Source: Bacillota bacterium (GTDB taxonomy: Bacteria > Bacillota > Clostridia > DUPQ01). From it: a DNA stretch of 64,000 nucleotides. Shown in pieces: positions 37,234 to 54,040 of the stretch. A program made the position numbers and the translations under genes. Position 1 is the stretch's first letter, and every line of letters begins with the position of its first letter. The notes beneath the pieces are model-generated. The model had not been told where the DNA came from. It saw only the letters and a program-made list of their open reading frames with translations, and did no database searches. The stretch is from contig JAKJBR010000001.1 in NCBI GenBank assembly GCA_022706885.1, positions 118,138 to 182,137 on the forward strand, given 5' to 3'.

Positions 37234-37387
37234 TTTTTTACATATTGACTTTTTGCAATATTTCGTGATTAACGGAATGAGATTCCGAAAAAATTGTCGG
37301 AATTCTTTCTTATAGTATAAAAAAAAGCATTTTTGTCAGTAGACATATATCGGCAATAACAATAGCATGATACTCGAAAGGAGTATT

Positions 37388-38560
37388 ATGAAGAAATTTA
37401 CATCTTTATTGCTTGTCATATGCTTAATACCGGCAGCCGGAGTATGCGGTGTTAATGCTCAGGCTGCAGGTTCACGGTTTAGCGATGTGCAATCATCCCA
37501 GTGGTTTTTTGAACCGGTCATACAGTTGTACGGAATGAATATTATAAACGGATATCCCGATAACACATTCAAACCCGACGGCAATGTCAAAGCCGATGAG
37601 TTGATAAAAATGATAATAAAAGCGCTGGGTTTTGATATAGGTAATGCTGAAGGTTACTGGGCTCAAAATTACATAGATAAAGCAGGTGATATTAAGCTTT
37701 TGGAAGGATTTGACGGTGAATATCAAAAAGAGATTAACAGAGGGCAGGCAGCCTTGCTTATCTCCAATGCCATGACATACCTTAAGGAGCCGGAATTTTA
37801 TTCGGAAAAGATATATCCGTTTGATTTGGGCGCATATACACCTGATAAGTATAAAGAGCATATAAAAAAGTGCTACAATGCGGGAGTTATTAACGGGTTT
37901 GAAGATTTCACTTTCCGATTCAATGAGACGCTTACCAGAGCACAGGCCTGCACCTTATTAATCAAGCTTATCGATAAAACAAAGAGAGATACCTCGGTGA
38001 GATTCGATTGCTCGTTTTTGGATAATACAACCAAAGATAATGTGCAATACAAGGGTGTTACATATGAGGAATTATCCGATGTTATAAAATCCACTCTAAC
38101 AGAAGTAAAGGATGATATCGGGTATATAGTGGTGGAAAAAAGAGTTTATGAGACCAAGAATACATATGAGATCCGATACCACAAATCCGCCATAAATACC
38201 AACCCCACATATTGTTTGTTTGCTTTCAGGTTTTTTGGAGGTCCGTCGGGATATACCGAAACACAGTGGGGTTACGATACAATGTTTTTAAAGTTGGAAC
38301 TGAAGAAGTTTAACTGGGATGACGGTATACCCGATAGCTTCTATAAGAGTAAAGTTAAAAATGCACTGTGTGCAGCTTTATCCGAACATAATCCTTATGA
38401 TATAGCGGATTATGTAATAGACAGATATGTATTTTTACGTGCTTTAAAACCTTGGGATGCATATAACCTGTTGGAAGACAATTCCAATGAAACATTGAGG
38501 TATGTCTTTTTCACTATGCACAATGTAATAGGCAATTTTACTTTTTCAAATAAAAAATGA
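37388..38560 (+). CDS. S-layer-homology (SLH) domain cell-wall-anchored protein
   Basis: ORF 37367..38560 trimmed to ATG 37388; signal peptide; SLH-like segments FSDVQSSQWFFEPV...GYPDNTFKPDGNVKADEL. Confidence 0.6.
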   Translation: MKKFTSLLLVICLIPAAGVCGVNAQAAGSRFSDVQSSQWFFEPVIQLYGMNIINGYPDNTFKPDGNVKADELIKMIIKALGFDIGNAEGYWAQNYIDKAGDIKLLEGFDGEYQKEINRGQAALLISNAMTYLKEPEFYSEKIYPFDLGAYTPDKYKEHIKKCYNAGVINGFEDFTFRFNETLTRAQACTLLIKLIDKTKRDTSVRFDCSFLDNTTKDNVQYKGVTYEELSDVIKSTLTEVKDDIGYIVVEKRVYETKNTYEIRYHKSAINTNPTYCLFAFRFFGGPSGYTETQWGYDTMFLKLELKKFNWDDGIPDSFYKSKVKNALCAALSEHNPYDIADYVIDRYVFLRALKPWDAYNLLEDNSNETLRYVFFTMHNVIGNFTFSNKK

Positions 38561-38610: not shown

Positions 38611-41136
38611 ATGAAAAGAGCTATCCTGTCTTTGATTACGATAATTTTACTGTTAAGCATGTGCATTAACGCATTTGCATATTGTGAAAGTTTTGAGAGA
38701 ACCGGAAAACACATAAATGTCGCATATGTTTCCGATGTACACACTCCGCAAGGTCATCAATGCGGATATATTTGTCAGGATTGCGAGTTGATTACCGTGA
38801 CGGGATATACAACACTTTCAACATGTTGTCGGTGCACCGGTAATCATAACTACTATACACTTTCTGTCGGATCTCATACCGCTTACGGGCATTTGGTAAA
38901 ATTGAAGTGCTCAACCTGCGGATACACGACCTCCTACTATAAAAAAGATGACAGCTGCTGTGATTGTGTCGGTCATATTCGAGGTCTCATGGAAATAAAC
39001 ACGGAGCATACGCAGGGACTGGGCCATTATTACACCGTTCCCTGTAAGGAATGCGGAGCGATTATAAAAAGCGGATATACAACACTGGCGTCATGTGCTA
39101 TCTGCAATTGCAGTCATTCCTATACAACAAGCATATCCGATTATCATACGTCCGGATCGGGACATTACTATACCAAGAAATGCAGTAAATGCGGCTATGT
39201 TTGCGATTCGGGATATACAGAGAAATCCGACTGTTGCGAATGCAGAGGATACCATAATTACAGTTACAGCGTATCTCCTGCTCATACAACATACGGACAC
39301 TATGTTACACAAAGATGTTTTGACTGCGGACATAATGCCGACTATTACACGACAGTACCCACCTGCTGCTATTGCAGAGGTTATCACAATTACTCATATA
39401 CCGTATCACAGGAACACACTGTTGACGGGCATAAAAAGACCGGTACCTGTTCTGCATGCGGGCATATCACCGTATCTTATACAACACTTGCCGACTGCTG
39501 CCTGTGCAGGGGATATCATGATTTTTCCGAATGGTCGCCGGTTTCAAAAATACATGAGGAACAAGGACATCGACAGAGCAGAACCTGTAAAATTTGCAAA
39601 CAAACGGAAGACAGGTTTACTACATACAGACCGTGTTGCTTATGTCACGGACATGATATGCAGAAGACATCGAATATAGGGGAGCATACCGATTTCGGGC
39701 ATGCCGTCATATACAGATGCATAACATGTGGATATGAAGAAACAATATACGAGGACATGTTCGGCTGTTCTTTATGTTCCAATACTCCCACAAATCAGGA
39801 GGAGTTTATGCTATGGATACAATATTTAGGAATACCTGTAAAAAGTGTAAACGGTAACTATACCGTATCCTTCACAATGTACCGTGATTACGGATATATT
39901 GTTTACGGTAATCCTCAAGATGTAGTGAATAATCATTGTGTAGCAGGTGAATATCAGTTCTTGGGATATACGTTTGATGAAGACCCTTTTACCAATATAT
40001 CTTATCAGAACACCGAAATGGGTCCCGTTAATGCTAATCAGTGGATATATGCCGAAATATCCGGAGCGGTCGAATCGTGGGACAGGCTGGAGCCTTCGGT
40101 GCAAAAACCGTATATGCTGCACACAAATCTTATAGGGCACGGAGCGGTGAATTTTACCGCAAATGATATAGGTATGGCTAAGACAAGGGTGCAGAACGGC
40201 GCATCCTGGCTCAGTACCGGTTCCATCTATACCTTCAAAACCAACGGATATTATGCCACTTTCAAGGTTCCTTCAATGGGTGTTCCCGATGTAAATCTGA
40301 ATGCCGCTTTTACTGAAGAAAGGCTTACCTATTCCGCTGCCGATGTACATAAGAAAGGATATATCAATGTAAACTTCACCATAGACAAACCTCTTAAGGA
40401 AATTGACTATATAAAACTGTCGGTACAGGGAGGTAACAGCATTATTCTGCAGCCTCATGAAAGAAACGGGCAACTGGAGCTGGACATACCGATTCAGAGT
40501 GTCATGCCGGCAAGGTATAAGGTGAGGGTATTAATAGAAGTTAAGAGCATATTTAACGATGTTCATATAACAAGAGAGTATTGTTCTGTAGACCTTTATA
40601 AAGAAGAGACTCCGTATAACCCGACTGATCCCGTACAGCCGGAGGAAATAATATCCGACCTGCCGGAAGATATTCCGTATCAAGCGAATTATGATATTCA
40701 CGTTACCGACATTTCATTGACGGGTTACTGGAATATATGGCATCTGAATGAAAGATTTACCTCACTGGAAAGAGTTCGCTTAAATGTGGCGGTTGAGGGA
40801 AGAGTAACAAAACTGTCGGTCATATTCAGTGAAGAATTGAAAAACCGCACATACCGGGACAAATACGGAAACACCTATGATTATAAAGAGCTTTTAGGCA
40901 GTTATGACATGTGCCCGAATGATATATGTTATGAAGGATTATGGGAGAACGGCTACACATTGAATACGGAATATATACTTCCTCTGTGTCCCGATACCGT
41001 TGATTCTTCCGGTAACAGAATAAAGGATAAGTATTTTATAAAAATAATAGCCGAAAACGAGAATAAGGAGCACACAAAGGAATACCTGATTGATATTACC
41101 GGCAACATTTATGATTTTCTGTATGTGCAGCCATAG
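38611..41136 (+). CDS. secreted protein with eight tandem about-45-aa Cys/His-rich modules followed by about 450-aa Cys-poor C-terminal region
   Basis: 841 aa; signal peptide MKRAILSLITIILLLSMCINAFA; modules follow HT-x2-GH-x5-C-x2-CG-x6-8-YTT-x3-CC-x-C-x-G-x-H-x-Y; nucleotide repeats 38710..39800 generate spurious overlapping ORFs on other frames. Confidence 0.7.
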   Translation: MKRAILSLITIILLLSMCINAFAYCESFERTGKHINVAYVSDVHTPQGHQCGYICQDCELITVTGYTTLSTCCRCTGNHNYYTLSVGSHTAYGHLVKLKCSTCGYTTSYYKKDDSCCDCVGHIRGLMEINTEHTQGLGHYYTVPCKECGAIIKSGYTTLASCAICNCSHSYTTSISDYHTSGSGHYYTKKCSKCGYVCDSGYTEKSDCCECRGYHNYSYSVSPAHTTYGHYVTQRCFDCGHNADYYTTVPTCCYCRGYHNYSYTVSQEHTVDGHKKTGTCSACGHITVSYTTLADCCLCRGYHDFSEWSPVSKIHEEQGHRQSRTCKICKQTEDRFTTYRPCCLCHGHDMQKTSNIGEHTDFGHAVIYRCITCGYEETIYEDMFGCSLCSNTPTNQEEFMLWIQYLGIPVKSVNGNYTVSFTMYRDYGYIVYGNPQDVVNNHCVAGEYQFLGYTFDEDPFTNISYQNTEMGPVNANQWIYAEISGAVESWDRLEPSVQKPYMLHTNLIGHGAVNFTANDIGMAKTRVQNGASWLSTGSIYTFKTNGYYATFKVPSMGVPDVNLNAAFTEERLTYSAADVHKKGYINVNFTIDKPLKEIDYIKLSVQGGNSIILQPHERNGQLELDIPIQSVMPARYKVRVLIEVKSIFNDVHITREYCSVDLYKEETPYNPTDPVQPEEIISDLPEDIPYQANYDIHVTDISLTGYWNIWHLNERFTSLERVRLNVAVEGRVTKLSVIFSEELKNRTYRDKYGNTYDYKELLGSYDMCPNDICYEGLWENGYTLNTEYILPLCPDTVDSSGNRIKDKYFIKIIAENENKEHTKEYLIDITGNIYDFLYVQP

Positions 41137-41997: not shown

Positions 41998-43383
41998 TTA
42001 TTTTACCATTCCCAACAGTTGTCGTACCCGTTTTTGCAGATGCTTTTCAATTGCCGTCAATCGCTCTTCCGGCCAGTTAACGGACGGATGCCTCTTGAAG
42101 GTAAAACCGATTAAACGACGCAACTGCTGTGCCTGTGCTTTTCCCGCAACTTCTCTGCAAATGTCTTCGAATGTTACATCCGGATAAGCGGGTAGACGGG
42201 TTTTAGCATATTGGTCAAGGTTTTTGATGTCTTTAGGCATAGCATAATTAAACAGTGAAAGTCCGTGGTCAAACAGAGGTGCAGGGGCAATCAATGCACC
42301 TGAATGATTATCTCTTAAGACTCCGAAATTTCCGAAGTGTCTGTCCTCATTGTAGATTACCGCGTCAAATACCAGCATGCTGTGTACCGCTTGGAGAAAA
42401 TCTTCCCCGATTGAAGAATAGTATTTTAATACCGCTTTCAAACCGCCCGATGTTACAATGCGTCCTACCGGTACAAAAGCGGTATCAATATCACAAAACA
42501 ACTTGCATTTTGAAGCTAAAATACCTTTCCAGTTCTCCAATTCATACTGCACGGCATTTAGACCCATGGTCTGTGCAATTTGGCAAGCATAATATTCACT
42601 GTAAGGCTCGTTTCCCGTATTAGCGGCACCGAATGTGCCTCCCTTATACAAGTAAATACCGTCATTATCAATAAGGCGCCATGCTTTAGGCAACATTCCG
42701 GCAGTAGTCAGCTCCGGCGAGGTTGTGAAACCTCCGTGACTTTGCTCTATACCCGTATAGGCAACCAAAGAAAGAATTTCCGAAAAACGGTTTTCATAGA
42801 GGTTATACTGAGCAAAGGAACCTTCAAAGCCCTCCGGGACTACCCAAAAACTGTCGTTAAGCGACAAGCCCTTGCAAATATCAATAATACCTTTAGTATC
42901 ACCTTGAGACAGATTTAAAGTTTTCAAGATCTCTTTCACAAAGGTACGGTTTTTAGGAATCACTCGTTTCTCCAACCATCTCAAAATGCCTTTATCAGAC
43001 AGTTCCAATCCAAGCGGGAGTAAGTGAAGTTGTTCCTTGTCAATAGAAATAATATGTGCTGTCAATCCTTCAATTCCTCTTTTCTCAAGAGAGAAAGTGA
43101 GTAATACTTTGTCAAAGAGCCGTAACTCGTAGTTGTTTTTCATATGGGAAAGTACTTTCGTTGAAGGTGCTGTCAGTTCAATTTTCAGCTCCAAAACCGA
43201 AGCCACTTGTAGTAAAAGGTCCAATGAAGGACTGTGACTTCCGCTTTCCAAGCGTGATATGGCGGAACGGTGCATACCTAAAAGTTCAGCTAACTGACTT
43301 TGTGTGAGACCTTTAGCAACCCGTGCTTTTGTAATCTGTTTGATAATATCCTGACGAAAGTCTTTAATATTATTGTCCGTCAT
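41998..43383 (-). CDS. HTH (XRE-type) - HipA-like Ser/Thr kinase fusion (HipH/YjjJ-like toxin)
   Basis: 461 aa; N-terminal HTH GLTQSQLAELLGMHRSAISRLESG; C-terminal HipA catalytic loop VIYNEDRHFGNFGVL; own promoter TTGACA-17-AATAAT at 43402..43430. Confidence 0.7.
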   Translation of the reverse strand: MTDNNIKDFRQDIIKQITKARVAKGLTQSQLAELLGMHRSAISRLESGSHSPSLDLLLQVASVLELKIELTAPSTKVLSHMKNNYELRLFDKVLLTFSLEKRGIEGLTAHIISIDKEQLHLLPLGLELSDKGILRWLEKRVIPKNRTFVKEILKTLNLSQGDTKGIIDICKGLSLNDSFWVVPEGFEGSFAQYNLYENRFSEILSLVAYTGIEQSHGGFTTSPELTTAGMLPKAWRLIDNDGIYLYKGGTFGAANTGNEPYSEYYACQIAQTMGLNAVQYELENWKGILASKCKLFCDIDTAFVPVGRIVTSGGLKAVLKYYSSIGEDFLQAVHSMLVFDAVIYNEDRHFGNFGVLRDNHSGALIAPAPLFDHGLSLFNYAMPKDIKNLDQYAKTRLPAYPDVTFEDICREVAGKAQAQQLRRLIGFTFKRHPSVNWPEERLTAIEKHLQKRVRQLLGMVK

Positions 43384-43493
43384 TAAAATGCCTCCTGCTC
43401 TATTATTGCAAAATGTAACAAATTTGTCAACAAATTACAAGAAACATTTAATAACAGTTCTACGTGGTAACAAATATGTAGACAATTATTTGA

Positions 43494-43658
43494 TTAAATT
43501 GTAAATGCTATTCCTACCTTAAAAACTTTTCGTGGTTTTTTATTATTTTCCATAAAACCAAGCACATCTGCAAGACGACAAATCTTTTCAAATGTATCTC
43601 GGACAAAACCAAGAGCATTGGCTTGTCTGTTCAGTTCTGCTTTACTAAAGTGCAGCAT
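43494..43658 (-). pseudogene. N-terminal remnant of AbiEii-type nucleotidyltransferase toxin (about 25 homologous codons then unrelated sequence)
   Basis: MLHFSKAELNRQANALGFVRDTFEKI resembles the N-terminus of AbiEii toxins as I recall them, then diverges and stops after 54 codons; start overlaps AbiEi stop by 14 nt as in intact abiEi-abiEii operons. Confidence 0.4.
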
Positions 43659-44409
43659 GATAATCTACTCCTTTATTTATCACCGTATTTATATCCTTTG
43701 GTGCCATAAGTCTCCATTCCGGATGATATACATATCCTATATGTTCCTTTGTGAGATAGCGGTCGGATTTAGGTATACGATCTGCGCAGATGCGGAAGAA
43801 AGCATCCGATAGACCGTAAGACTCGCGAAAGTGTTTCAGGATAAAACCGGTTTTTTGGTAGAGAAAACCATTTTGATATTCATTCAGAGTAAATAGCAGT
43901 TTTTCTTCATTTAGGGTAGGTATCAGATCAAGGCAGCGGAGAAGCTCCTCCAGTCCCGCAATCTTATCTACATCATTGATACTGTCGATAACCGTCTGTT
44001 CTACTCCTGTAACACGGACACCTCCTATTATTTCCGTTTGCACAGTTCCTTTAGGTGAAACACGGCGGAAAGTTATTCCATCGTATTCAAAGTCCTTGAA
44101 ACGACTGCCTGTCATAACATAAACCTCATAAAATACTTGATTTGCATACCCATATACTTCAAAGGCACTATGATGTGAAACGGACGCATCGGGAAATAGG
44201 CGGCTGCCTATTCCGTAACGCGATAAGATTGGTTGCTTGTTCTCTATGCTTATCGCAACGTAAAAGTTATGCCTGACCCGTTCTATATATCCTTTTTTCT
44301 GATATTGTTGTAATATGGTGGCTGCTGTATTATCCCCCAATTGTAAAGCCTTAGCAAGCTCACTACGGGAAAAGCAACCCATTTCTACCATATTCTCATA
44401 GTATTTCAA
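43645..44409 (-). CDS. AbiEi-type antitoxin/transcriptional regulator (type IV TA, winged HTH)
   Basis: 254 aa; N-terminal GCFSRSELAKAL...KKGYIERVRHNFY wHTH pattern typical of AbiEi. Confidence 0.55.
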   Translation of the reverse strand: MKYYENMVEMGCFSRSELAKALQLGDNTAATILQQYQKKGYIERVRHNFYVAISIENKQPILSRYGIGSRLFPDASVSHHSAFEVYGYANQVFYEVYVMTGSRFKDFEYDGITFRRVSPKGTVQTEIIGGVRVTGVEQTVIDSINDVDKIAGLEELLRCLDLIPTLNEEKLLFTLNEYQNGFLYQKTGFILKHFRESYGLSDAFFRICADRIPKSDRYLTKEHIGYVYHPEWRLMAPKDINTVINKGVDYHAAL

Positions 44410-46819: not shown

Positions 46820-46845
46820 CAATTGTGAACAATTGTGAACAATTT
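46820..46845. promoter_or_regulatory. perfect tandem direct repeat CAATTGTGAA x2 (plus CAATTT) upstream of candidate promoter for paralog cluster
   Basis: read directly; promoter candidate TTAACA-16-TGtTAGAAT at 46857..46884. Confidence 0.4.
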
Positions 46846-47021
46846 AAGTAATTTATTTAACAGTTCTCTGTTTTATGTTAGAATGAACCGTGTGTAGCAG
46901 CAGTATTAATAAAAAATATATATAGAAGAAGAAAAAGAAACAGAGTATTGTTTGGATAGTTAAGTCTTGAAGATACAGTATATATGCAATTTTATTGTAT
47001 TTAAATCGGAGGTCTGACAGA

Positions 47022-48746
47022 ATGGAAAACAGGAAAAAAAGATTTGCTATTTTGATTATCGCAGCTGTAATTATAGTTATTGCGGCTTCACTGTTGTTTT
47101 TATTCCGTGACAGATTATTTAAAAAAGACAACTTTGTTGTTACAACATTTAACAGCGATATTGTAATAAAAAGAACGGATGCGAATGAATCGTTGGATAT
47201 GCCTTACAGATATACCAAAGCACTGATGGATAACTTATTTATATTCAGACAGGAAATTGCCGGCATCAATATAGCATCCGTAAAGTATAACATGAGCGAT
47301 AACTATATCAATTGGCATACACCGGAGGGTGTTTTAACAGATACCGACAGAGGTAAAGGTAAGCAGGTAATAGATGAGGTAAAGTATTTCAAGGGTATAT
47401 CCACTTTAAGTTCGATAGTTGCCGACAAGGAAGACTGCAAGATATCCATTTATGAAGGCTATTCCGAAGATTTACTGATGCATGATTATCAAAACTTTGC
47501 CATTATACCTTCTTCCATGAGTAAGTATTTTGATAAGGATTTGCCTGCCGATGAAAAGGTGTTGAATATAAGGAATATGAGATACGGCAGCATGTTGCAT
47601 TTTACGATAATAGGGGAGTACAAGACTGAAGAAGAGTATGATACCTTGTATGTTACGTATACCGGCTTAAGTACCTTAATCCGTGCCGGCAGAGCCGATA
47701 TTCTAAACCATGTTGACTGTCTGGAAATTGATGTGAATGAGGACAAGGATCTTAATAAACTTATGCGTTTCTTAAGCGAATATTACGCGGATGCACAGGT
47801 GCTTTCCCAGTATACGGAAAGGAATAATATATATAACGACCCTTATCAATATATGTTTGTTCACTCAATGGGTATAGAACCTATTGAACTTAAAGAGAAT
47901 GTAATCTATGAAAAGAACATAATAACCATATCCAGAATGGACGGGAAGGAAGATCTTGAAATGTCGCATGTGTATGCCGATGCGATAATAAAAGGGTATA
48001 ACAAATATTCACAATGCATAACCGATTTAGATATAAGTACGGGAGTAAAAGGAATTAATCCGGCAGATTATCCTCCCGGTTCGGAAGCTTTCTGGAATCA
48101 GCCGGTATATCAGTTGCTTTTAAAATATGACACGGTATACGAGGCTAAACTGAAAGAAACGCTGGGGGACTTTCCCTGTTATCATCAGGCCGTTACAAGT
48201 ATAAATGAAATATTAAGGATGAAAAAAGACTGCAAAGTTACATACTATCTGAACTATATGAACAGTGACCTTATTGTACCCAGACAGAAGGACTTGTTGG
48301 GCAAAATAAAAGGCTATGCCATAGTTCCCAAACCTTTGCATGAGGCAACATCCGATCTTCCCAATTTTAACAATCACATTGTTGAAGTATATGAGAGCAG
48401 GGTATATGTCGGTATAGGCGGAGTTGACCCCAGTCAGATAGACAGATCTCCTCATTTTAGAGCCCAATTTAAAATAATAGGGTATTACGAGACAACCGAT
48501 CCGTATGATACCGTGTTTGTAACATATGTCGGATGCAACGAGAAGTATAAAAGTGCAGCATTCAAGAACGAACATATAGAGTCTATAACCATGAAGACAA
48601 AAGGAGATGTGGAGATAAGTCCGTTGATTAATTTTTTGAAGTTGTATTTTGCACCTTCGGAAAACGCCGCTGAATATGCAGGCAGTACAAATGAATTGGG
48701 TTTGGCGTATGAATACAGTTTTACAATGAAGGAGATTGCGGAGTAA
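47022..48746 (+). CDS. paralog 1 of a membrane-anchored, internally duplicated extracytoplasmic protein family of unknown function
   Basis: ORF 46995..48746 trimmed to ATG 47022 (MENRKKRFAILIIAAVIIVIAASLLF TM anchor); shares KYCKGITSL..IVADK, NEPYQYMYV, KYSQYITDI.ISTG, GYAIVPK, IGYYETTD.YDTV.VTY.G motifs with the next two genes. Confidence 0.7.
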   Translation: MENRKKRFAILIIAAVIIVIAASLLFLFRDRLFKKDNFVVTTFNSDIVIKRTDANESLDMPYRYTKALMDNLFIFRQEIAGINIASVKYNMSDNYINWHTPEGVLTDTDRGKGKQVIDEVKYFKGISTLSSIVADKEDCKISIYEGYSEDLLMHDYQNFAIIPSSMSKYFDKDLPADEKVLNIRNMRYGSMLHFTIIGEYKTEEEYDTLYVTYTGLSTLIRAGRADILNHVDCLEIDVNEDKDLNKLMRFLSEYYADAQVLSQYTERNNIYNDPYQYMFVHSMGIEPIELKENVIYEKNIITISRMDGKEDLEMSHVYADAIIKGYNKYSQCITDLDISTGVKGINPADYPPGSEAFWNQPVYQLLLKYDTVYEAKLKETLGDFPCYHQAVTSINEILRMKKDCKVTYYLNYMNSDLIVPRQKDLLGKIKGYAIVPKPLHEATSDLPNFNNHIVEVYESRVYVGIGGVDPSQIDRSPHFRAQFKIIGYYETTDPYDTVFVTYVGCNEKYKSAAFKNEHIESITMKTKGDVEISPLINFLKLYFAPSENAAEYAGSTNELGLAYEYSFTMKEIAE

Positions 48747-48809
48747 AAATTATGCCGTAATTTGTGTTTTACATAAGGATTTACAAACAACCGATTGGAG
48801 GGTAAAAAC

Positions 48810-50624
48810 ATGAAAAAAACAAATATGATTATAGCTGTCGCCTTAACAGTTATAATAACTGCATTGCTGTTGGCATCTTGTGACGGTCTGTCAAAAAAAG
48901 AAGAGGGTTTGATTGATGCAACATTCAGCAACGATATAGTTATAAAAAGGGTTGACGGGAAGCAACCGGCAAATATACCGTATAAGTATACAAAAGCCCT
49001 GCTTTCGGACAATATAGCATATATTGACGGAGTGGAGGCTGTAAATATATCTTCTCGCAGATACAACATAAAGGATAATGATATAAGTGTGCGCGGAGAC
49101 AGGGATTTGTTTGTTTCTTCGGAGGAGGAAAAAGCTGCGGAAGTTATGGGCTCGATAAAGTACTGTAAAGGTATAACTTCCCTCTGCACGATAGTCGCCG
49201 ACAAAGGAAAAAGTAAAGTGGAGTTTTATGCAGGATATTCCGAGGAGTATCTTACAAGTGTAGATAAAGCTTATGTAATTATTCCGTCTTCCATAGGTGA
49301 GCTTATAAACGAAGAGATACCTGATTCCGACAAAAGAATAGTACTGGAGAAAGGCGCTTTCGGTATAACATATTTCACTATAATAGGGGAGTATGAAGTA
49401 AAAGACAGGAGCAAAAATAAAGGTGAGCCCGATACCCTATATCTGTCATATGCGGGATTTGGTAACTTGATTAATATGGGTGAAGAGATTGACATAAGCT
49501 TTGTTGATTGTCTGGAGATTGACGCAGATGAGCAAGCCGATCTCACAAAACTTACCTACTGTCTTACCACATATTTTGCCGATGCAAACACGCTTTCTCA
49601 ATATGAAGGCAGGATAAACATGTTTAACGAGAATTACTCATATATGTATGAAAACTCCGTCAACATGAAGTCGTTGGATTTATCACCCGATACAGATTGT
49701 GAAAAGAAAATAATAACCGTTTCCAGAATAGACGGAAAAAGTGATTTGGATATGTCCTATGTATATGCAGATGCGTTGGTAAGAGATTACAATAAATACT
49801 CACAATACATAACCGATATAAATATAAGTACCGGTTTGGGAGGACATGATCCTTATGAAAATGCAAAACTTGAGTCAATAGACAAAGGCGGTGGTTTTAT
49901 ACAGACAAATTTTATTCTTGATAATGCTGACGGTCTGAATATAAGTTTTGCTTCAAGCTCAACCGGTTTTCGCGATGCGGTAACCAATATGATTACACAG
50001 AATCGTAAAGATGCCTTGGCAGATGTAGGAAAAGGGAAAGCTTGGAAAAAACACGTTCAATATCTTTTGCATCAGCCTATAACCAGCATAAGTGAAATAG
50101 AAAAAATGAAGAGCAACAGCGAGGTGACTTTTTATACGAACTATACAAACAGGGATCTTGTTGTGCAAAGAAAGGAAGATTATATTGAGAGTACCTTTAA
50201 AAGCGACGGTGATATAAAAGGATATGCGATAATACCTAAGACAATGCATGATGCCGCAAGCGCTCTTCCCGATTTAAAAACCCATATTTTATACCTGAGC
50301 GAGAAAAATGATGCTGTGGAGAGTAACCAGAAAGTATTAGTCGGTTTTAAGGTAATAGGCTATTACGAGACAGATGACAGATATGATGTGGTATATATAA
50401 CATATGCGGGCAGTAATGATAAGTATACAAAGGAACGTTTCAGAAATGACTATATTAACTCTGTAACCATAGAAACAAAAAAAGATACCGACATTACACC
50501 GTTGCTGGAATATCTGGAGCAGTATTTTGCACCGGCAACCGATACATCAAAATATGCGGGAAAGAAAAATGCATTGGGCAGGGATTATGAATATTGCTAT
50601 ACAATTAAAAGCAATGCGGATTAA
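48810..50624 (+). CDS. paralog 2 (lipoprotein form) of the same family
   Basis: ORF 48795..50624 trimmed to ATG 48810 (MKKTNMIIAVALTVIITALLLASC lipobox). Confidence 0.7.
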   Translation: MKKTNMIIAVALTVIITALLLASCDGLSKKEEGLIDATFSNDIVIKRVDGKQPANIPYKYTKALLSDNIAYIDGVEAVNISSRRYNIKDNDISVRGDRDLFVSSEEEKAAEVMGSIKYCKGITSLCTIVADKGKSKVEFYAGYSEEYLTSVDKAYVIIPSSIGELINEEIPDSDKRIVLEKGAFGITYFTIIGEYEVKDRSKNKGEPDTLYLSYAGFGNLINMGEEIDISFVDCLEIDADEQADLTKLTYCLTTYFADANTLSQYEGRINMFNENYSYMYENSVNMKSLDLSPDTDCEKKIITVSRIDGKSDLDMSYVYADALVRDYNKYSQYITDINISTGLGGHDPYENAKLESIDKGGGFIQTNFILDNADGLNISFASSSTGFRDAVTNMITQNRKDALADVGKGKAWKKHVQYLLHQPITSISEIEKMKSNSEVTFYTNYTNRDLVVQRKEDYIESTFKSDGDIKGYAIIPKTMHDAASALPDLKTHILYLSEKNDAVESNQKVLVGFKVIGYYETDDRYDVVYITYAGSNDKYTKERFRNDYINSVTIETKKDTDITPLLEYLEQYFAPATDTSKYAGKKNALGRDYEYCYTIKSNAD

Positions 50625-50704
50625 TTATTAACACGCATTATTCCGTAACTTGTGTCGTATTTAAATAAACAGCGTTAGTGAAAGTATTTGAGGGCATTAA
50701 GTGT

Positions 50705-52429
50705 ATGGTGAAAAAGAAAAAGACAGGTTTGATTATTACTGTCACTGTAATCGTTTTAGCGGTTGTAGCAGCATTGTTGTTTCTTTTTCGCAACAGACTT
50801 TTTTGCAATATCGGACATTTCAATGTCACAACTTTCAACAGCGATATAGTTATTAAAAGGTCGGATGCACAGGAACCGCTGAATATGCCGTACAGATATT
50901 CCAAGGCTTTATTGGATAAAAGGTTGGTGTTCAGAGAGGAAATAGAAAGACTCAACATAACCACCGTCAGATATGAAATAAGTAATACGGGTCTGACTTT
51001 GTATAACTGTAAGGAGGTTTTGAAAAATCCGGAAAGCGGAGTGACAAAGAAAGTTATAGAATCAATAAAGTACTGTAAAGGTATAACTGCATTAAGCGGT
51101 TTAACTGCTGATAAAGCGGACAGTAAAATCACAATTTACCGAGGTTACTCTGCGGACCTTCTGGAACAGAGTTTACATAACTATGTAATAATTCCCTCTA
51201 CCCTTAGCGAACATATAGATTCTCAATTATCCGATAATGAAAAGGTATTGTTCCTTGCAAATTCCGGCACAAGCAGTCTGGCATATTTCACCATAATAGG
51301 GGAATATGAAACCAAGCACAGACATGACACTTTTTACTTTTCCTATTCAGGATTGAGCAATGTGGTGCTGGGAGGGAAAGAAGATATTGCCGATCATATC
51401 GACTACATGGGGATTGATGTAAACAATAAAGCGAACCTTGTAAAATTCTCATATTTCCTGAGCGAATATTTTGCAGACTATAATGTGCTTTCACAGTATG
51501 AAAAAAGAATAAACAAATTCAATGAACCTTATCAATATATGTATGTAAACAATGTTGATATCCTGCCGATAAATCTTTCGGAAGATTCCGGTTTTGAAAA
51601 GAATATAATAACCGTAACCGGAATAGACGGTAACGATAATCTTCAGATGTCGCATGTATACGGTGATGCATTAATTGAAGACTACCATAAATATTCGCAA
51701 TATATAACGGACATAATAATAAGCACAGGGGTAAAAGGAGAGGATTGGTCTAAGTACCCGCTAAATGTAAAGATTCCCTGTTACGGTATTAATTTCGGAG
51801 GTTACGGATTGGAAGGCTTTTATGTGAAATATACGGAATACTACCAATCACACGGTATGGATAGTCCTTGGTACCATCAGGCTGTTACAAGTATAAGAGA
51901 AATTAAAAGTATGAAAAAAAATTGTGATATAACATTTTATACCAACTATACCGAAAAGGACCTTGTTGTTATCAGAAAAGAAGACTATGTGGAGCCCAAG
52001 GATCACTTGGACAGCGGCATAACGGGATATGCAATTGTGCCTAAAATGATATGGGAATCGGTCCGCAACCATCCCGATATAGACTACCAGATTATAAGGT
52101 TGTTTGAGCAACCGAAAAAAGAAGACAACCCTTCGGACAGAATGAGATTCGGATTTAAAGTAATAGGCTATTATGAAACCGCTGACGAAAGTGATACGGT
52201 GTATGTTACATATGGCGGGTATAACAGGAAGTATGTAAAGGAGCCTTTCAAAAACGAGTGCATCCGGTCTATGATTATAGAAACAAGAAGCGATGCCGAC
52301 ATTACTCCGTTGCTGGAATATCTGGAGCAGTATTTTGCACCGGCATCCGATACATCAAAATATGCGGGAAAGAAAAACCTATTGGGAATGGAGTATGAGT
52401 ACTGTTATACTATTACCAGTGAGCAGTAA
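50705..52429 (+). CDS. paralog 3 of the same family
   Basis: ORF 50678..52429 trimmed to ATG 50705 (MVKKKKTGLIITVTVIVLAVVAALLF TM anchor). Confidence 0.7.
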   Translation: MVKKKKTGLIITVTVIVLAVVAALLFLFRNRLFCNIGHFNVTTFNSDIVIKRSDAQEPLNMPYRYSKALLDKRLVFREEIERLNITTVRYEISNTGLTLYNCKEVLKNPESGVTKKVIESIKYCKGITALSGLTADKADSKITIYRGYSADLLEQSLHNYVIIPSTLSEHIDSQLSDNEKVLFLANSGTSSLAYFTIIGEYETKHRHDTFYFSYSGLSNVVLGGKEDIADHIDYMGIDVNNKANLVKFSYFLSEYFADYNVLSQYEKRINKFNEPYQYMYVNNVDILPINLSEDSGFEKNIITVTGIDGNDNLQMSHVYGDALIEDYHKYSQYITDIIISTGVKGEDWSKYPLNVKIPCYGINFGGYGLEGFYVKYTEYYQSHGMDSPWYHQAVTSIREIKSMKKNCDITFYTNYTEKDLVVIRKEDYVEPKDHLDSGITGYAIVPKMIWESVRNHPDIDYQIIRLFEQPKKEDNPSDRMRFGFKVIGYYETADESDTVYVTYGGYNRKYVKEPFKNECIRSMIIETRSDADITPLLEYLEQYFAPASDTSKYAGKKNLLGMEYEYCYTITSEQ

Positions 52430-52484: not shown

Positions 52485-53027
52485 ATGCTTAAACTACAGG
52501 GAAAATCCATATATTTAGCAGCACTGGAACGTGCAGACTGCCGCAAACTTTTTGAGGACAACGAATACGATTTTGAGAATCCTACCGATATTCTTTACAT
52601 CGGTTATTCTGTAGAAGGAGCCGACAAGTGGTTTGAGGAGATACAGGCGGCACAGGGAAAGACACATGTGCGACTGGGAATCTTTCTCAATGACGGTACT
52701 GTGATAGGAGATATCGCCATGCAGAATATCGATAATCGTAACCGTTCCTGTTCCATCGGCATGGGCATACAGAAGTTGGAAAACCGTAACAGAGGTTATG
52801 GCAAGCAGGCAGTCTCGCTGATACTTGAGTACGGTTTTTGCAACCTGGGTCTTGAACGCATTACGGCAGGCACATTGGACTGCAATATTTCAGCAAAGAA
52901 GTCGCTGGAGAAGCTGGGATTTGTCTTGGAAGGACGCGAGCGCAAGGCAATCTATTTCGGCGGCGTGCGTCATGACCGGCTTTGTTATGCTATGCTTGCG
53001 GAGGAGTATAATGGAAAGCAGCATTAA
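52485..53027 (+). CDS. GNAT-family N-acetyltransferase (RimJ/RimL-like)
   Basis: 180 aa; acetyl-CoA binding motif RNRGYGKQAV. Confidence 0.75.
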   Translation: MLKLQGKSIYLAALERADCRKLFEDNEYDFENPTDILYIGYSVEGADKWFEEIQAAQGKTHVRLGIFLNDGTVIGDIAMQNIDNRNRSCSIGMGIQKLENRNRGYGKQAVSLILEYGFCNLGLERITAGTLDCNISAKKSLEKLGFVLEGRERKAIYFGGVRHDRLCYAMLAEEYNGKQH

Positions 53028-53784
53028 AAAGTTCTGGAATGACGGTTCCGATGAGTACTATAACAGAGCATATAACATAAACAACAATGCGATAAGGATA
53101 AAAGCCGACCCGTGGTGGGCGTTTCCCGTACCTGTCCGTAATATGATTCAAAATGCGTTTAGCAGTATGAAAGGTATTAAGGTGCTTGTACCGTCAAGCG
53201 GAGACAACGGAGCGGTTTTTGCCTTTCATTTGCTCGGTGCAACAGTTGTCTCTGCGGACATTTCGGAGCAGCAACTGGGAAATGCAAAAAGGATTGCCGA
53301 CAATGAACGCTGGGATATTGAATTTATTCAAGCCGACACTATGAAGTTAGACGGAATGTGCGATAGTGAATTTGATCTTGTCTACACATCAAACGGCACT
53401 CATATCTGGATAAATGACCTACAAGCTATGTATTCAAACTTCAACCGTGTGTTGAAGCCGAAGGGAAAGTATATTATGTTTGAAACTCATCCTTTCAATC
53501 GACCGTTTGACGATTCAGGTGCAAAAATAAAAGTGAAAAAGCCGTACAACGATACAACAGGAAACCATTGGCGAATTATGGATATATTTAATGCCGTTAT
53601 CAGCCAAGGCTTTTATATTCTGCATCTTGAGGAATTTCACGCAGAACCCGGGGCACACGACTTATGGTTTTACAAAACTATTAAAGAAGCCGAAGCGGAC
53701 GGAAACAGGAAATATGATATAAAGCATAATCCGTTCGCGGCTCTGCCGGCATGGTTTGGGCTTTCCTCAATAAAAAGATATTAG
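53011..53784 (+). CDS. class I SAM-dependent methyltransferase
   Basis: ORF 52825..53784 trimmed to ATG 53011 (MESSIKKFWNDG), overlapping GNAT stop by 17 nt; motif I VLVPSSGDNG and VVSADISEQQ. Confidence 0.65.
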   Translation: MESSIKKFWNDGSDEYYNRAYNINNNAIRIKADPWWAFPVPVRNMIQNAFSSMKGIKVLVPSSGDNGAVFAFHLLGATVVSADISEQQLGNAKRIADNERWDIEFIQADTMKLDGMCDSEFDLVYTSNGTHIWINDLQAMYSNFNRVLKPKGKYIMFETHPFNRPFDDSGAKIKVKKPYNDTTGNHWRIMDIFNAVISQGFYILHLEEFHAEPGAHDLWFYKTIKEAEADGNRKYDIKHNPFAALPAWFGLSSIKRY

Positions 53785-53827: not shown

Positions 53828-53856
53828 TTGACATTACAAAGATGTGTTGATATACT
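53828..53856 (+). promoter_or_regulatory. sigma-70-like promoter TTGACA-17-TATACT for tyrS leader
   Basis: read directly. Confidence 0.5.
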
Positions 53857-53882
53857 TCGGATAAATTAAAAAGGAGCGCCAA

Positions 53883-53966
53883 ATGGCAGTAAACAGAAAA
53901 CACAGTTCAAATATGTATTATTACAACTATTACTACTTAAATAGGCTTGGGCTGTTATTGTCGTAA
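53883..53966 (+). CDS. candidate tyrosine-rich leader peptide (27 aa, MAVNRKHSSNMYYYNYYYLNRLGLLLS)
   Basis: RBS AGGAG 7 nt upstream; six Tyr codons in seven consecutive positions; followed by intrinsic terminator before tyrS. Confidence 0.5.
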   Translation: MAVNRKHSSNMYYYNYYYLNRLGLLLS

Positions 53967-53993
53967 TTCTTTTGTAGAAACAATTAATGATTA

Positions 53994-54022
53994 GGCTCAG
54001 GCAAACGCTTGAGTCTTTTTTG
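53994..54022 (+). terminator. intrinsic terminator/attenuator hairpin (GGCTCAGGC-aaac-GCTTGAGTC + TTTTTTG) in tyrS leader
   Basis: stem-loop plus U-tract 18 nt before tyrS ATG. Confidence 0.6.
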
Positions 54023-54040
54023 ATGTAAGGAGAAACAGGT

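What the first reader, a model, noticed from the sequence alone, without database searches (positions are those of the whole stretch)
47022..52429. Three tandem divergent paralogs of an uncharacterised, internally duplicated, membrane-anchored extracytoplasmic protein
Seen in sequence: three consecutive genes of about 575-605 aa share one architecture. Each has a short cytoplasmic tail, then either a TM anchor (copies 1 and 3) or a lipobox (copy 2), then a large soluble region. The soluble region is itself two homologous halves; each half ends in ...IIGEY(K/E)...DT(L/F)Y(V/L)(T/S)Y(T/A)G... or ...IGYYET.D.YD.V(F/Y)(V/I)TY.G.N.KY. Conserved blocks include FNSDIVIKR, KYCKGIT(S/A)L..IVADK, NEPYQYMYV, SHVYADA...Y.KYSQ.ITD(L/I).ISTG, GYAI(V/I)PK, and the C-terminal ITPL(L/I).(Y/F)L..YFAP...KYAG..N.LG..YEY. 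Pairwise identity is only moderate, consistent with diversifying paralogs. I cannot assign these to any family I know; they are not FtsX/MacB permeases, because no C-terminal TMs are present. Inference from their extracytoplasmic location and tandem diversification: a surface receptor, sensor or immunity-like function. The cluster may be co-transcribed with the downstream GNAT and methyltransferase, and a direct-repeat element lies upstream. This is the strongest candidate in the window for an undescribed system.
Basis: seen in the sequence. Interest (0 to 1): 0.8.

Follow-up and report, generated by a model that had tools for sequence, protein, structure and literature searches.

The report
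Free-standing ABC-permease outer domains, tripled
Three neighbouring genes in an uncultured biogas-reactor Clostridia bacterium each encode a membrane-tethered surface protein made of two copies of the outer domain of a MacB/FtsX-type ABC transporter permease, without the membrane-spanning part that would couple it to an ATPase; this architecture was not described in the literature searched, the proteins probably serve as accessory modules of such a transporter encoded elsewhere in the genome, and their substrate is unknown.

Summary
Three tandem genes (47022-48746, 48810-50624, 50705-52429; 574, 604 and 574 aa) are 38-48% identical. Each has one N-terminal anchor (TM in copies 1 and 3, lipobox Cys24 in copy 2) and two homologous halves.

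That permease sits in a narrow-lineage operon with a 650-aa permease and an ATPase. In all seven transporter lineages examined, the operon carries a family gene directly upstream. The window's genome (Firmicutes bacterium ADurb.Bin099) has such an operon elsewhere.

The family is tiny: 27 hits among 1.84 billion representatives and 6 of 185,579 species genomes. It is highly paralogous, with about 12 copies per genome.

Best reading: these are ECD-only satellite paralogs acting as adaptors of a type VII ABC system. The function is inferred, not shown. I rate it a new variant of a known kind, of moderate interest.

The parts
47022..48746 (+). Copy 1 (574 aa; exact match to OQC01656.1, BWX78_00183). 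It has an N-terminal TM anchor followed by FRDRLF, then two tandem MacB/FtsX-type extracytoplasmic domains.
   Evidence: ORF and RBS; alignment; single hydrophobic segment; exact database match; internal duplication.
48810..50624 (+). Copy 2 (604 aa; OQC01657.1). It is a predicted lipoprotein (lipobox LLAS-C24) with two tandem ECD-type domains. It carries the largest insertion, in the second domain.
50705..52429 (+). Copy 3 (574 aa; OQC01658.1). It has a TM anchor plus two ECD-type domains. This is the copy that was modelled.
50774..51556 (+). Copy 3, first ECD-type domain (about residues 24-284). It aligns to the end of TM1 plus the whole ECD (residues 39-270) of the 399-aa FtsX-family permease.
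   Evidence: hhalign 96.7%, E 3.2e-10, 226 columns; N-half alone 96.8%.
51575..52426 (+). Copy 3, second ECD-type domain (about residues 291-574).
   Evidence: hhalign C-half vs permease ECD 94.7%, E 5.7e-8; N-half vs C-half 99.8%, E 2e-29.
46857..46884 (+). Promoter-like site (TTAACA-16-TAGAAT with an extended -10 TG), about 140 nt upstream of copy 1. It is a candidate promoter for the array.
   Evidence: Consensus scan only. No terminator-like site on the + strand until 53993.
46820..46844 (.). CAATTGTGAA x2.5 direct repeat, also readable as the palindrome ACAATTGTGAACAATTGT. It is a possible operator just upstream of the promoter-like site.
   Evidence: Function untested.

Best explanation
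Each of the three genes encodes a surface-tethered protein. Copy 2 is lipid-anchored and copies 1 and 3 are single-pass TM-anchored. The soluble part is a tandem pair of domains homologous to the extracytoplasmic (Porter+Sabre-type) domain of MacB/FtsX/LolCE-class (type VII, 'mechanotransmission') ABC permeases. The TMH2-4 bundle and coupling helix that would link such a domain to an ATPase are absent.

They belong to a small, lineage-restricted and highly paralogous family whose founding context is an operon: [family gene(s)] - [650-aa FtsX/MacB_PCD permease] - [399-aa FtsX permease, the closest relative of the family's domain] - [MJ0796/LolD-type ATPase].

Shown:
- The architecture.
- Fold and profile homology to the permease ECD.
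- The operon association in other loci, and in a locus carrying the exact Bin099 permease.
- Purifying selection.

Inferred: the proteins act as extracytoplasmic accessory or adaptor modules of that transporter. They would either dock on its ECDs through homotypic contacts or bind the same class of envelope ligand. The many diverged paralogs (the window's three are 'satellite' copies) would supply different specificities. This would be comparable in logic to LptC/LptA, which are stand-alone homologs of the LptF/G periplasmic domains, or to multiple orphan binding lipoproteins serving one ABC importer. They cannot perform mechanotransmission on their own. The substrate is unknown.
For: Architecture:
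- One N-terminal hydrophobic segment and no other TM.
- The AF2 model has a TM helix (residues 3-32), a low-confidence linker (30-42), then two alpha/beta domains.

Fold:
- Foldseek gives MacB at E 7e-4, plus LolE and LolC domains.

Sequence homology to a genuine permease:
- The family HMM hits only the 399/402-aa FtsX permeases among 827 locus ORFs.
- hhalign of family vs permease family gives 96.7%, E 3e-10, covering the whole ECD. Each half separately gives 96.8% and 94.7%.

Gene linkage:
- All seven transporter lineages examined carry a family gene directly upstream. These are L021, L022/23, L024, L029, L030-32/34/35/L006, L033 and L036/37.
- The window's genome is ADurb.Bin099. The permease P0075 is also a Bin099 protein, and its exact sequence lies in the L030-type operon on JGI contigs.

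Co-restricted distribution:
- Family: 35 clusters, 27 representatives among 1.84e9, 6 of 185,579 species genomes.
- Permease family: 27 clusters from the same MAG lineages.

Genes under selection: dN/dS is 0.16-0.45 between strains.
Against: - The window's array has no transporter or ATPase within the 64 kb that I annotated.
- Most copies are dispersed with unrelated neighbours, including V-ATPase plus an ABC-2 exporter, SpoIID, PBP5/M50, a two-component system, GH127 and ValRS. Independent function is therefore quite possible.
- No physical interaction was tested or modelled.
- The 650-aa permease's large ECD shows no detectable similarity to the family.
- No substrate clue was found.
Confidence: 0.55

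Rival explanations
1. Autonomous surface proteins. The domain was borrowed from a permease, but the proteins now work independently of any ABC transporter. They would be ligand-binding, scaffold or envelope-structural (lipo)proteins, for example binding cell-wall, S-layer or polymer components in a polysaccharide-degrading anaerobe.
For: - Most copies, including the window's three, are not next to a transporter, and their neighbourhoods vary.
- There are about 12 paralogs per genome against one detected transporter operon.
- A flexible low-confidence linker lies between anchor and first domain, rather than a rigid stalk helix (compared with the permease model).
Against: Every transporter operon examined keeps a family gene, and the two families share the same very narrow distribution. 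A fully independent function would not predict this.
Confidence: 0.27
2. Antimicrobial-peptide or toxin defence modules. The free ECDs would act as decoys or target-protection binders, alone or with the transporter, as BceB, YknZ or NsrFP ECDs bind peptide antibiotics.
For: - Many Firmicute type VII systems are AMP-resistance modules (established knowledge; reviews PMC5985334 and PMC11009047 listed).
- The second-best structural match is YknZ.
- One paralog lies directly downstream of a response regulator and histidine kinase pair (L011), which recalls the Bce module layout.
- A multi-paralog repertoire would fit diverse ligands.
Against: - No bacteriocin or lantibiotic genes were seen near any copy.
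- There are no PADLOC or PHROG hits and none on viral contigs.
- Purifying rather than positive selection acts at gene level.
- The histidine kinase in L011 is a large 622-aa kinase, not a BceS-type intramembrane sensor.
Confidence: 0.1
3. Co-sensors for signal transduction. The tethered ECDs would detect an extracellular cue and pass it to a membrane kinase or other signalling protein.
For: - The RR+HK pair immediately upstream of one paralog (L011).
- FtsX and BceB ECDs are known to act as sensing or regulatory domains (established knowledge).
Against: - This rests on a single locus; no signalling genes flank the window's array.
- The cytoplasmic tail is only a few residues long.
- The one GGDEF-EAL fusion (P0093) removes the TM and occurs on one 5-kb contig, so it is likely an assembly chimera.
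Confidence: 0.05
4. Decaying remnants: truncated or duplicated permease fragments on their way to pseudogenisation. A related alternative is a known substrate-binding or sporulation lipoprotein family missed by the profiles.
For: They look like permeases that have lost TMH2-4. A truncated 180-aa member exists in L036.
Against: - Intact 560-620-aa ORFs with their own RBSs are conserved across six or more species and many strains.
- dN/dS is 0.16-0.45.
- 51 residues are invariant across 30 sequences.
- The model is confident.
- NCBIfam and Pfam have no SBP or sporulation family hit.
Confidence: 0.03

Closest known systems
Extracytoplasmic (periplasmic core) domain of type VII ABC permeases: MacB, YknZ, LolC/LolE, FtsX, YbbP, HrtB, YtrF, BceB (Pfam MacB_PCD PF12704 + FtsX PF02687)
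   Different: - There are no TMH2-4, no coupling helix and no adjacent ATPase.
- The domain is tandemly duplicated in one chain.
- In about half the members the anchor is replaced by a lipobox.
- A flexible linker replaces the continuous stalk helix.
- Pfam MacB_PCD does not detect it.
- It therefore cannot transmit ATPase-driven motion by itself.
LolCDE-type heteromeric type VII transporter (two different permeases plus an ATPase)
   Same: The partner operon encodes two unlike FtsX-type permeases (about 650 and 399 aa) and one LolD/MJ0796-like ATPase. The permease TM region matches MacB and LolF.
   Different: - The host is a Gram-positive-type Clostridia lineage (it has SLH and SpoIID genes) with no Lol pathway expected.
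- One permease has an ECD of about 470 aa of unrecognised type.
- The operon carries extra ECD-only genes and a small Cys-rich lipoprotein.
- The substrate is unknown.
LptC/LptA relative to LptF/LptG (stand-alone, membrane-tethered or soluble homologs of an ABC transporter's periplasmic domain)
   Same: The logic only: a transporter's extracytoplasmic domain has free-standing paralogs encoded with it, one of them anchored by a single TM helix. This is from established knowledge and is offered as an analogy for how the proteins may work.
   Different: The fold is unrelated (beta-jellyroll versus Porter+Sabre). No bridge-forming interaction was shown or modelled here. The analogy was not tested.
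FtsEX partners and Bce modules in Firmicutes (FtsX ECD with PcsB/CwlO; BceB ECD with a peptide-lipid complex; BceS)
   Same: In these systems a type VII ECD serves as a binding or regulatory platform rather than a pore (PMC5985334). One paralog sits beside a two-component system.
   Different: No coiled-coil hydrolase activator, M23/CHAP effector or BceS-type kinase is consistently linked. The window array has none of them.

Membership tests
Type VII ABC permease (MacB/FtsX/LolCE superfamily) | Four-TMH topology with a C-terminal FtsX TM bundle (Pfam FtsX PF02687) after the ECD | tested here: not met
   Only one hydrophobic segment, at the N-terminus, in all 39 distinct members. No helical bundle in the AF2 model. 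No FtsX Pfam hit at E<=1.
Type VII ABC permease (MacB/FtsX/LolCE superfamily) | Extracytoplasmic domain of Porter(+Sabre) fold following TMH1 | tested here: met
Type VII ABC permease (MacB/FtsX/LolCE superfamily) | Sequence-profile homology to a bona fide member | tested here: met
   hhalign against the 399-aa FtsX-permease family: 96.7% for the full protein, 96.8% for the N-half and 94.7% for the C-half, spanning permease residues about 39-271. Pfam's own MacB_PCD model does not match.
Type VII ABC permease (MacB/FtsX/LolCE superfamily) | Cognate MJ0796/LolD-type ATPase encoded with it | tested here: not met
   None in the annotated neighbourhood of the window array. It is present only next to other paralogs at other loci.
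Bacterial lipoproteins (Lgt/Lsp substrates) | Signal peptide ending in a lipobox with an invariant Cys | tested here: met
   Met for copy 2 only (LLAS-C24). Copies 1 and 3 lack the Cys and retain a TM anchor followed by FRDxLF. About half of the family members have a G+LPP-type lipobox. No dedicated predictor was run.
   No Pfam or NCBIfam hit. The only entry is a sub-threshold YxeA match (E 0.059, 14 bits vs cutoff 29.65) on the N-terminal 6-68 residues. No SBP chains rank among the top structural matches, which are type VII ECDs.
Known anti-phage defence or phage proteins | Match to PADLOC or PHROG models, or occurrence on viral contigs | tested here: not met
   PADLOC has no hit for the three proteins. 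PHROGs has only one E 0.027 noise hit. None of 65 pattern matches on viral contigs encodes a relative.
Accessory subunit of the 650/399-aa type VII transporter (proposed here) | Physical association with the transporter ECDs | not testable with these tools
   Only gene linkage (seven of seven transporter lineages) and co-distribution were available. Complex prediction was not possible.

The most novel reading that the evidence does not exclude
A modular 'satellite ECD' system. A heteromeric type VII ABC transporter would use a repertoire of about a dozen interchangeable, lipid- or TM-tethered, single- or double-ECD paralogs as substrate-specific adaptors or acceptors. These would dock by homotypic ECD-ECD contacts. 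This would be a Gram-positive counterpart in logic to LptC/LptA or to orphan binding proteins of importers, and a previously unrecognised way of diversifying mechanotransmission transporters.
Probability: 0.3. Interest if true: 0.7.

Novelty: new variant of a known kind. Interest (0 to 1): 0.48.

Why it matters
Type VII ABC systems (MacAB, LolCDE, FtsEX, BceAB, HrtBA, YtrEF, YbbAP) all work through an extracytoplasmic domain that is mechanically coupled to a four-helix bundle and an ATPase.

A family that keeps only that domain raises a new possibility. Here the domain is duplicated, tethered to the membrane, expanded to about a dozen paralogs, and retained in every cognate transporter operon examined. 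This suggests the domain can act in trans as an accessory or adaptor. That would widen the known repertoire of partners for these transporters, which are important in envelope biogenesis and antibiotic resistance.

It also gives a domain-level annotation and a testable partner to about 35 protein clusters that public databases label only 'hypothetical'.

The practical limits are that the lineage is narrow and uncultured (anaerobic digesters) and that no substrate is indicated.

Tried and rejected
- Curated libraries gave nothing usable: Pfam, NCBIfam, PADLOC, PHROGs, and PDB sequence searches with both single protein and profile. The YxeA hit (E 0.059) falls on the signal/TM region and was dismissed.
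- The AFDB50 fold library was unavailable.
- I tested whether the 650-aa permease's ECD of about 470 aa is the double-domain prototype of the family. No similarity was found (hhalign 0.3%).
- I suspected that the 3-copy versus 4-copy array difference arose by recombination between near-identical 260-bp repeats. The repeats are only about 79% identical, so the mechanism is unresolved; it is simply a clean one-gene indel.
- A cell-wall or sporulation link (SpoIID, PBP5, M50, M23 and NlpC/P60 near some copies) was not recurrent across loci.
- A link to the upstream ABC_tran+12TM_1 exporter (L001, L026) was seen in two related contexts only and lies next to V-ATPase genes. I did not pursue it as a partner.
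- A link to the GNAT and methyltransferase genes exists only in this species.
- The JGI label 'diguanylate cyclase-like' for some cluster members comes from a chimeric 838-aa call on one short contig.
- A T-box upstream of tyrS was not found by Rfam, even at E<=1.
- Literature searches found no description of free-standing MacB-type ECD proteins. This is absence within the held library only.
Full report
**1. Observation**

The region holds three co-directional ORFs. Good ribosome-binding sites precede the ATGs at 47022, 48810 and 50705, giving proteins of 574, 604 and 574 aa. Identity to copy 1 is 41% and 48% in the MAFFT alignment, and pairwise BLASTP gives 38-47%.

A hydropathy scan of 39 distinct family members finds exactly one hydrophobic segment, at the N-terminus, and none elsewhere. 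Copy 2 has a lipobox (LLAS-C24). Copies 1 and 3 keep a TM helix followed by a conserved FRDxLF.

The internal duplication is real. N-half against C-half gives BLASTP E of about 1e-16 at about 24% identity, and hhalign gives 99.8%, E 2e-29.

**2. No curated family, but a recognisable domain**

Several searches returned nothing significant:
- Pfam and NCBIfam.
- PDB sequence search with a single protein and with a 30-sequence profile.
- PADLOC and PHROGs.

An AlphaFold2 model of copy 3, built on a 30-sequence alignment, is confident (pLDDT 85.6, pTM 0.82). It shows an N-terminal helix (3-32), a low-confidence linker (30-42) and two alpha/beta domains.

The structure searches point one way:
- Foldseek agrees, with MacB at E 7e-4 plus LolE and LolC domains.

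The defining features of these transporters are four TM helices with a Porter+Sabre ECD between TMH1 and TMH2, per the review PMC5985334. The window proteins have the ECD, twice, but none of the rest.

**3. A very small, very paralogous family**

- A word-indexed search of 5.8 billion proteins found 35 clusters. All are from uncultured Clostridia MAGs, and every one that carries a source name is called hypothetical.
- An exhaustive profile search of 1.84 billion representatives found 27 hits, mostly fragments.
- Only 6 of 185,579 GTDB species genomes carry the family, and each has several dispersed copies.
- The window's three proteins are exact matches to OQC01656-OQC01658 of Firmicutes bacterium ADurb.Bin099.
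- The conspecific MAG DUPQ01 is 97.7% identical at nucleotide level. It carries 10 full-length copies and one half-size copy over six loci.
- Half-size members (about 285 aa, an anchor plus one domain) exist in several genomes.
- A distance tree shows that the three window copies are not each other's nearest relatives. Copy 1 groups with L007_8205 and L001_8052. Copy 3 groups with the L008, L009 and L030 copies. Copy 2 stands alone. The array is therefore old, not a recent burst.
- DUPQ01 has a fourth gene between copies 2 and 3 that the window lacks. This is a clean indel of about 1.79 kb.
- Between the two strains dN/dS is 0.16, 0.20 and 0.45. This is purifying selection, and it argues against both pseudogenes and gene-wide positive diversification.

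**4. The conserved partner**

Neighbourhoods of most copies differ, but one arrangement recurs.

- In L021, L022/L023, L024 and L029 the order is: [half-size member] - [small Cys-rich lipoprotein, 101-141 aa] - [full-size member] - [650-aa permease with weak MacB_PCD and FtsX hits] - [399-aa FtsX permease] - [224-aa ABC ATPase].
- Starting from the transporter side, homologs of the 399-aa permease number only 27 clusters, from the same MAG lineages.
- Their loci all carry a family gene directly upstream:
  - L030-32, L034-35 and L006 have a 604-aa member, then two 350-aa lipoproteins, then the 651/399/224 genes.
  - The distant L033 has a 293-aa half-size member.
  - L036/37 has a truncated 180-aa member.
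- That makes seven of seven transporter lineages.
- P0075, the permease of the L030-type operon, is a Bin099 protein, and its exact sequence lies in that operon on JGI contigs. The window's own genome therefore almost certainly encodes the transporter elsewhere. The operon-linked 604-aa copy belongs to the clade that includes window copy 3.

**5. Homology to that permease**

- Among 827 ORFs from all loci, the only non-family hits of the family HMM are the 399/402-aa permeases (E 1e-5 to 1e-3; 6e-11 for L033).
- Profile-profile comparison of the family (30 sequences) with the permease family (21 sequences) gives 96.7% probability, E 3.2e-10. It aligns family residues 24-284 with permease residues 39-270, which is the end of TM1 plus the whole ECD.
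- The halves tested separately give 96.8% and 94.7%.
- The ATPase is MJ0796/LolD/YtrE-like.
- In the permease model, TM1 continues as a long helix straight into the ECD (H23-60, then a strand at 62-69). The window protein instead has a disordered linker. This fits a tethered domain rather than a mechanically coupled one.
- The 650-aa permease's large ECD is not detectably related to the family.

**6. Interpretation**

Shown: the three genes encode membrane-tethered, tandem-duplicated, TM-bundle-less paralogs of the ECD of a lineage-specific FtsX/MacB-type permease, and members of this family are fixed components of that transporter's operon.

Inferred (confidence about 0.5): they act in trans as accessory or adaptor modules of that heteromeric type VII system. 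They would dock on its ECDs or bind the same envelope ligand, with paralogs providing different specificities. The window's array would be a set of satellite copies. The logic resembles LptC/LptA relative to LptF/G, but that is an analogy from established knowledge and was not tested.

Rivals:
- Autonomous surface binding or structural proteins (0.27). This is favoured by the dispersed, context-free copies.
- Antimicrobial-peptide decoys or protection (0.10).
- Co-sensors (0.05). One copy follows an RR+HK pair.
- Decaying fragments or a missed SBP or sporulation family (0.03). This is disfavoured by conservation, selection and fold.

No defence or phage signal was found.

**7. Local transcription**

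- The gaps between the genes are 63, 80 and 55 nt, and each gene has its own RBS.
- No terminator-like site occurs on the + strand between 46500 and 53993.
- A promoter-like site lies at 46857-46884, just downstream of a CAATTGTGAA x2.5 repeat/palindrome.

Co-transcription through the GNAT (52485-53027) and methyltransferase (53041-53784) genes is therefore possible. That neighbourhood is species-specific, however, so it says nothing about function.

**8. Verdict**

Its statement that the proteins are not FtsX/MacB permeases is correct for membership, but it missed that the soluble halves are exactly that family's ECD.

This is a new protein family with a new architecture built from a known domain, linked to a known class of transporter. 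I rate it a new variant of a known kind.

Interest is moderate (0.48). ECD-only satellites of a mechanotransmission transporter were not described in the literature I could search. Against that, the lineage is narrow and uncultured, and no substrate or mechanism is demonstrated.

Noticed in passing
window 50602-50705 vs L007 8113-9917: The conspecific MAG DUPQ01 (97.7% nt identity) has a fourth family gene (571 aa) between copies 2 and 3 that the window and L005 lack. This is a clean one-gene (about 1.79 kb) presence/absence polymorphism. The flanking 3' gene ends are only about 79% identical, so the mechanism is unresolved.
   Followed up: partly
L017, L019, L021-L024, L029, L033 (e.g. L024:203-559 and 1581-1982; L033:2123-2470): A small Cys/His-rich predicted lipoprotein (101-141 aa) recurs inside the transporter operons, sometimes in two copies. 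Its conserved motif is CSH..YWD...EC.ICGE.W...H.W...LGHI.G..LH...C.QCGYS.IT.EFC...H. It has no significant Pfam hit (best: CapR, E 0.031, L029 copy) and is absent from the window.
   Followed up: partly
P0093 (838 aa; one 5.2-kb JGI/Logan contig), relative of window 47022-48746: A GGDEF plus partial EAL protein is joined in frame to copy 1 exactly after its TM helix (...NLSVVQF|RDRLFKKDNF...). This is probably an assembly chimera or a one-off rearrangement. It explains the odd JGI label 'diguanylate cyclase-like' within this protein cluster.
   Followed up: partly
window 53828-54040: A near-consensus promoter (TTGACA-17-TATACT with TG) is followed by a terminator-like hairpin at 53993-54016, just before the tyrS start (54041). 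It looks like a leader or attenuator where a T-box would be expected. Rfam finds nothing even at E<=1.
   Followed up: partly
window 46820-46844: CAATTGTGAA x2.5 can also be read as the palindrome ACAATTGTGAACAATTGT. It lies in the divergent intergenic region between the iPGM gene and copy 1 and overlaps promoter-like sites on both strands. It is a possible operator.
   Followed up: no
L011:4362-8830 (DUPQ01000076): An OmpR-type response regulator and a 622-aa histidine kinase lie immediately upstream of, and co-directional with, a 617-aa family paralog. The gap is 37 nt.
   Followed up: no
L030:5733-8039 (also L034, L035): In the Bin099-type transporter operon, two tandem paralogous lipoproteins of 356 and 349 aa sit between the family gene and the permeases. 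They have no family assignment, and they occupy the place held by the half-size member and Cys-rich protein in other lineages.
   Followed up: no
window 38611-41136: An 841-aa ORF has no Pfam hit. It lies downstream of an SLH-domain protein (37367-38560) and is conserved in the same position in L005.
   Followed up: no
window 41998-44409 (- strand): A 461-aa protein with an HTH_3 domain and a weak HipA_C match lies next to a 254-aa protein with no Pfam hit. This may be a HipBA-like toxin-antitoxin-type module.
   Followed up: no
L001/L016 and L026: In two contexts a pair or single family copy follows V-type ATPase genes and an ABC_tran + 12TM_1 (ABC-2-like) exporter pair. In L026 a DDE transposase is inserted between them.
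   Followed up: no
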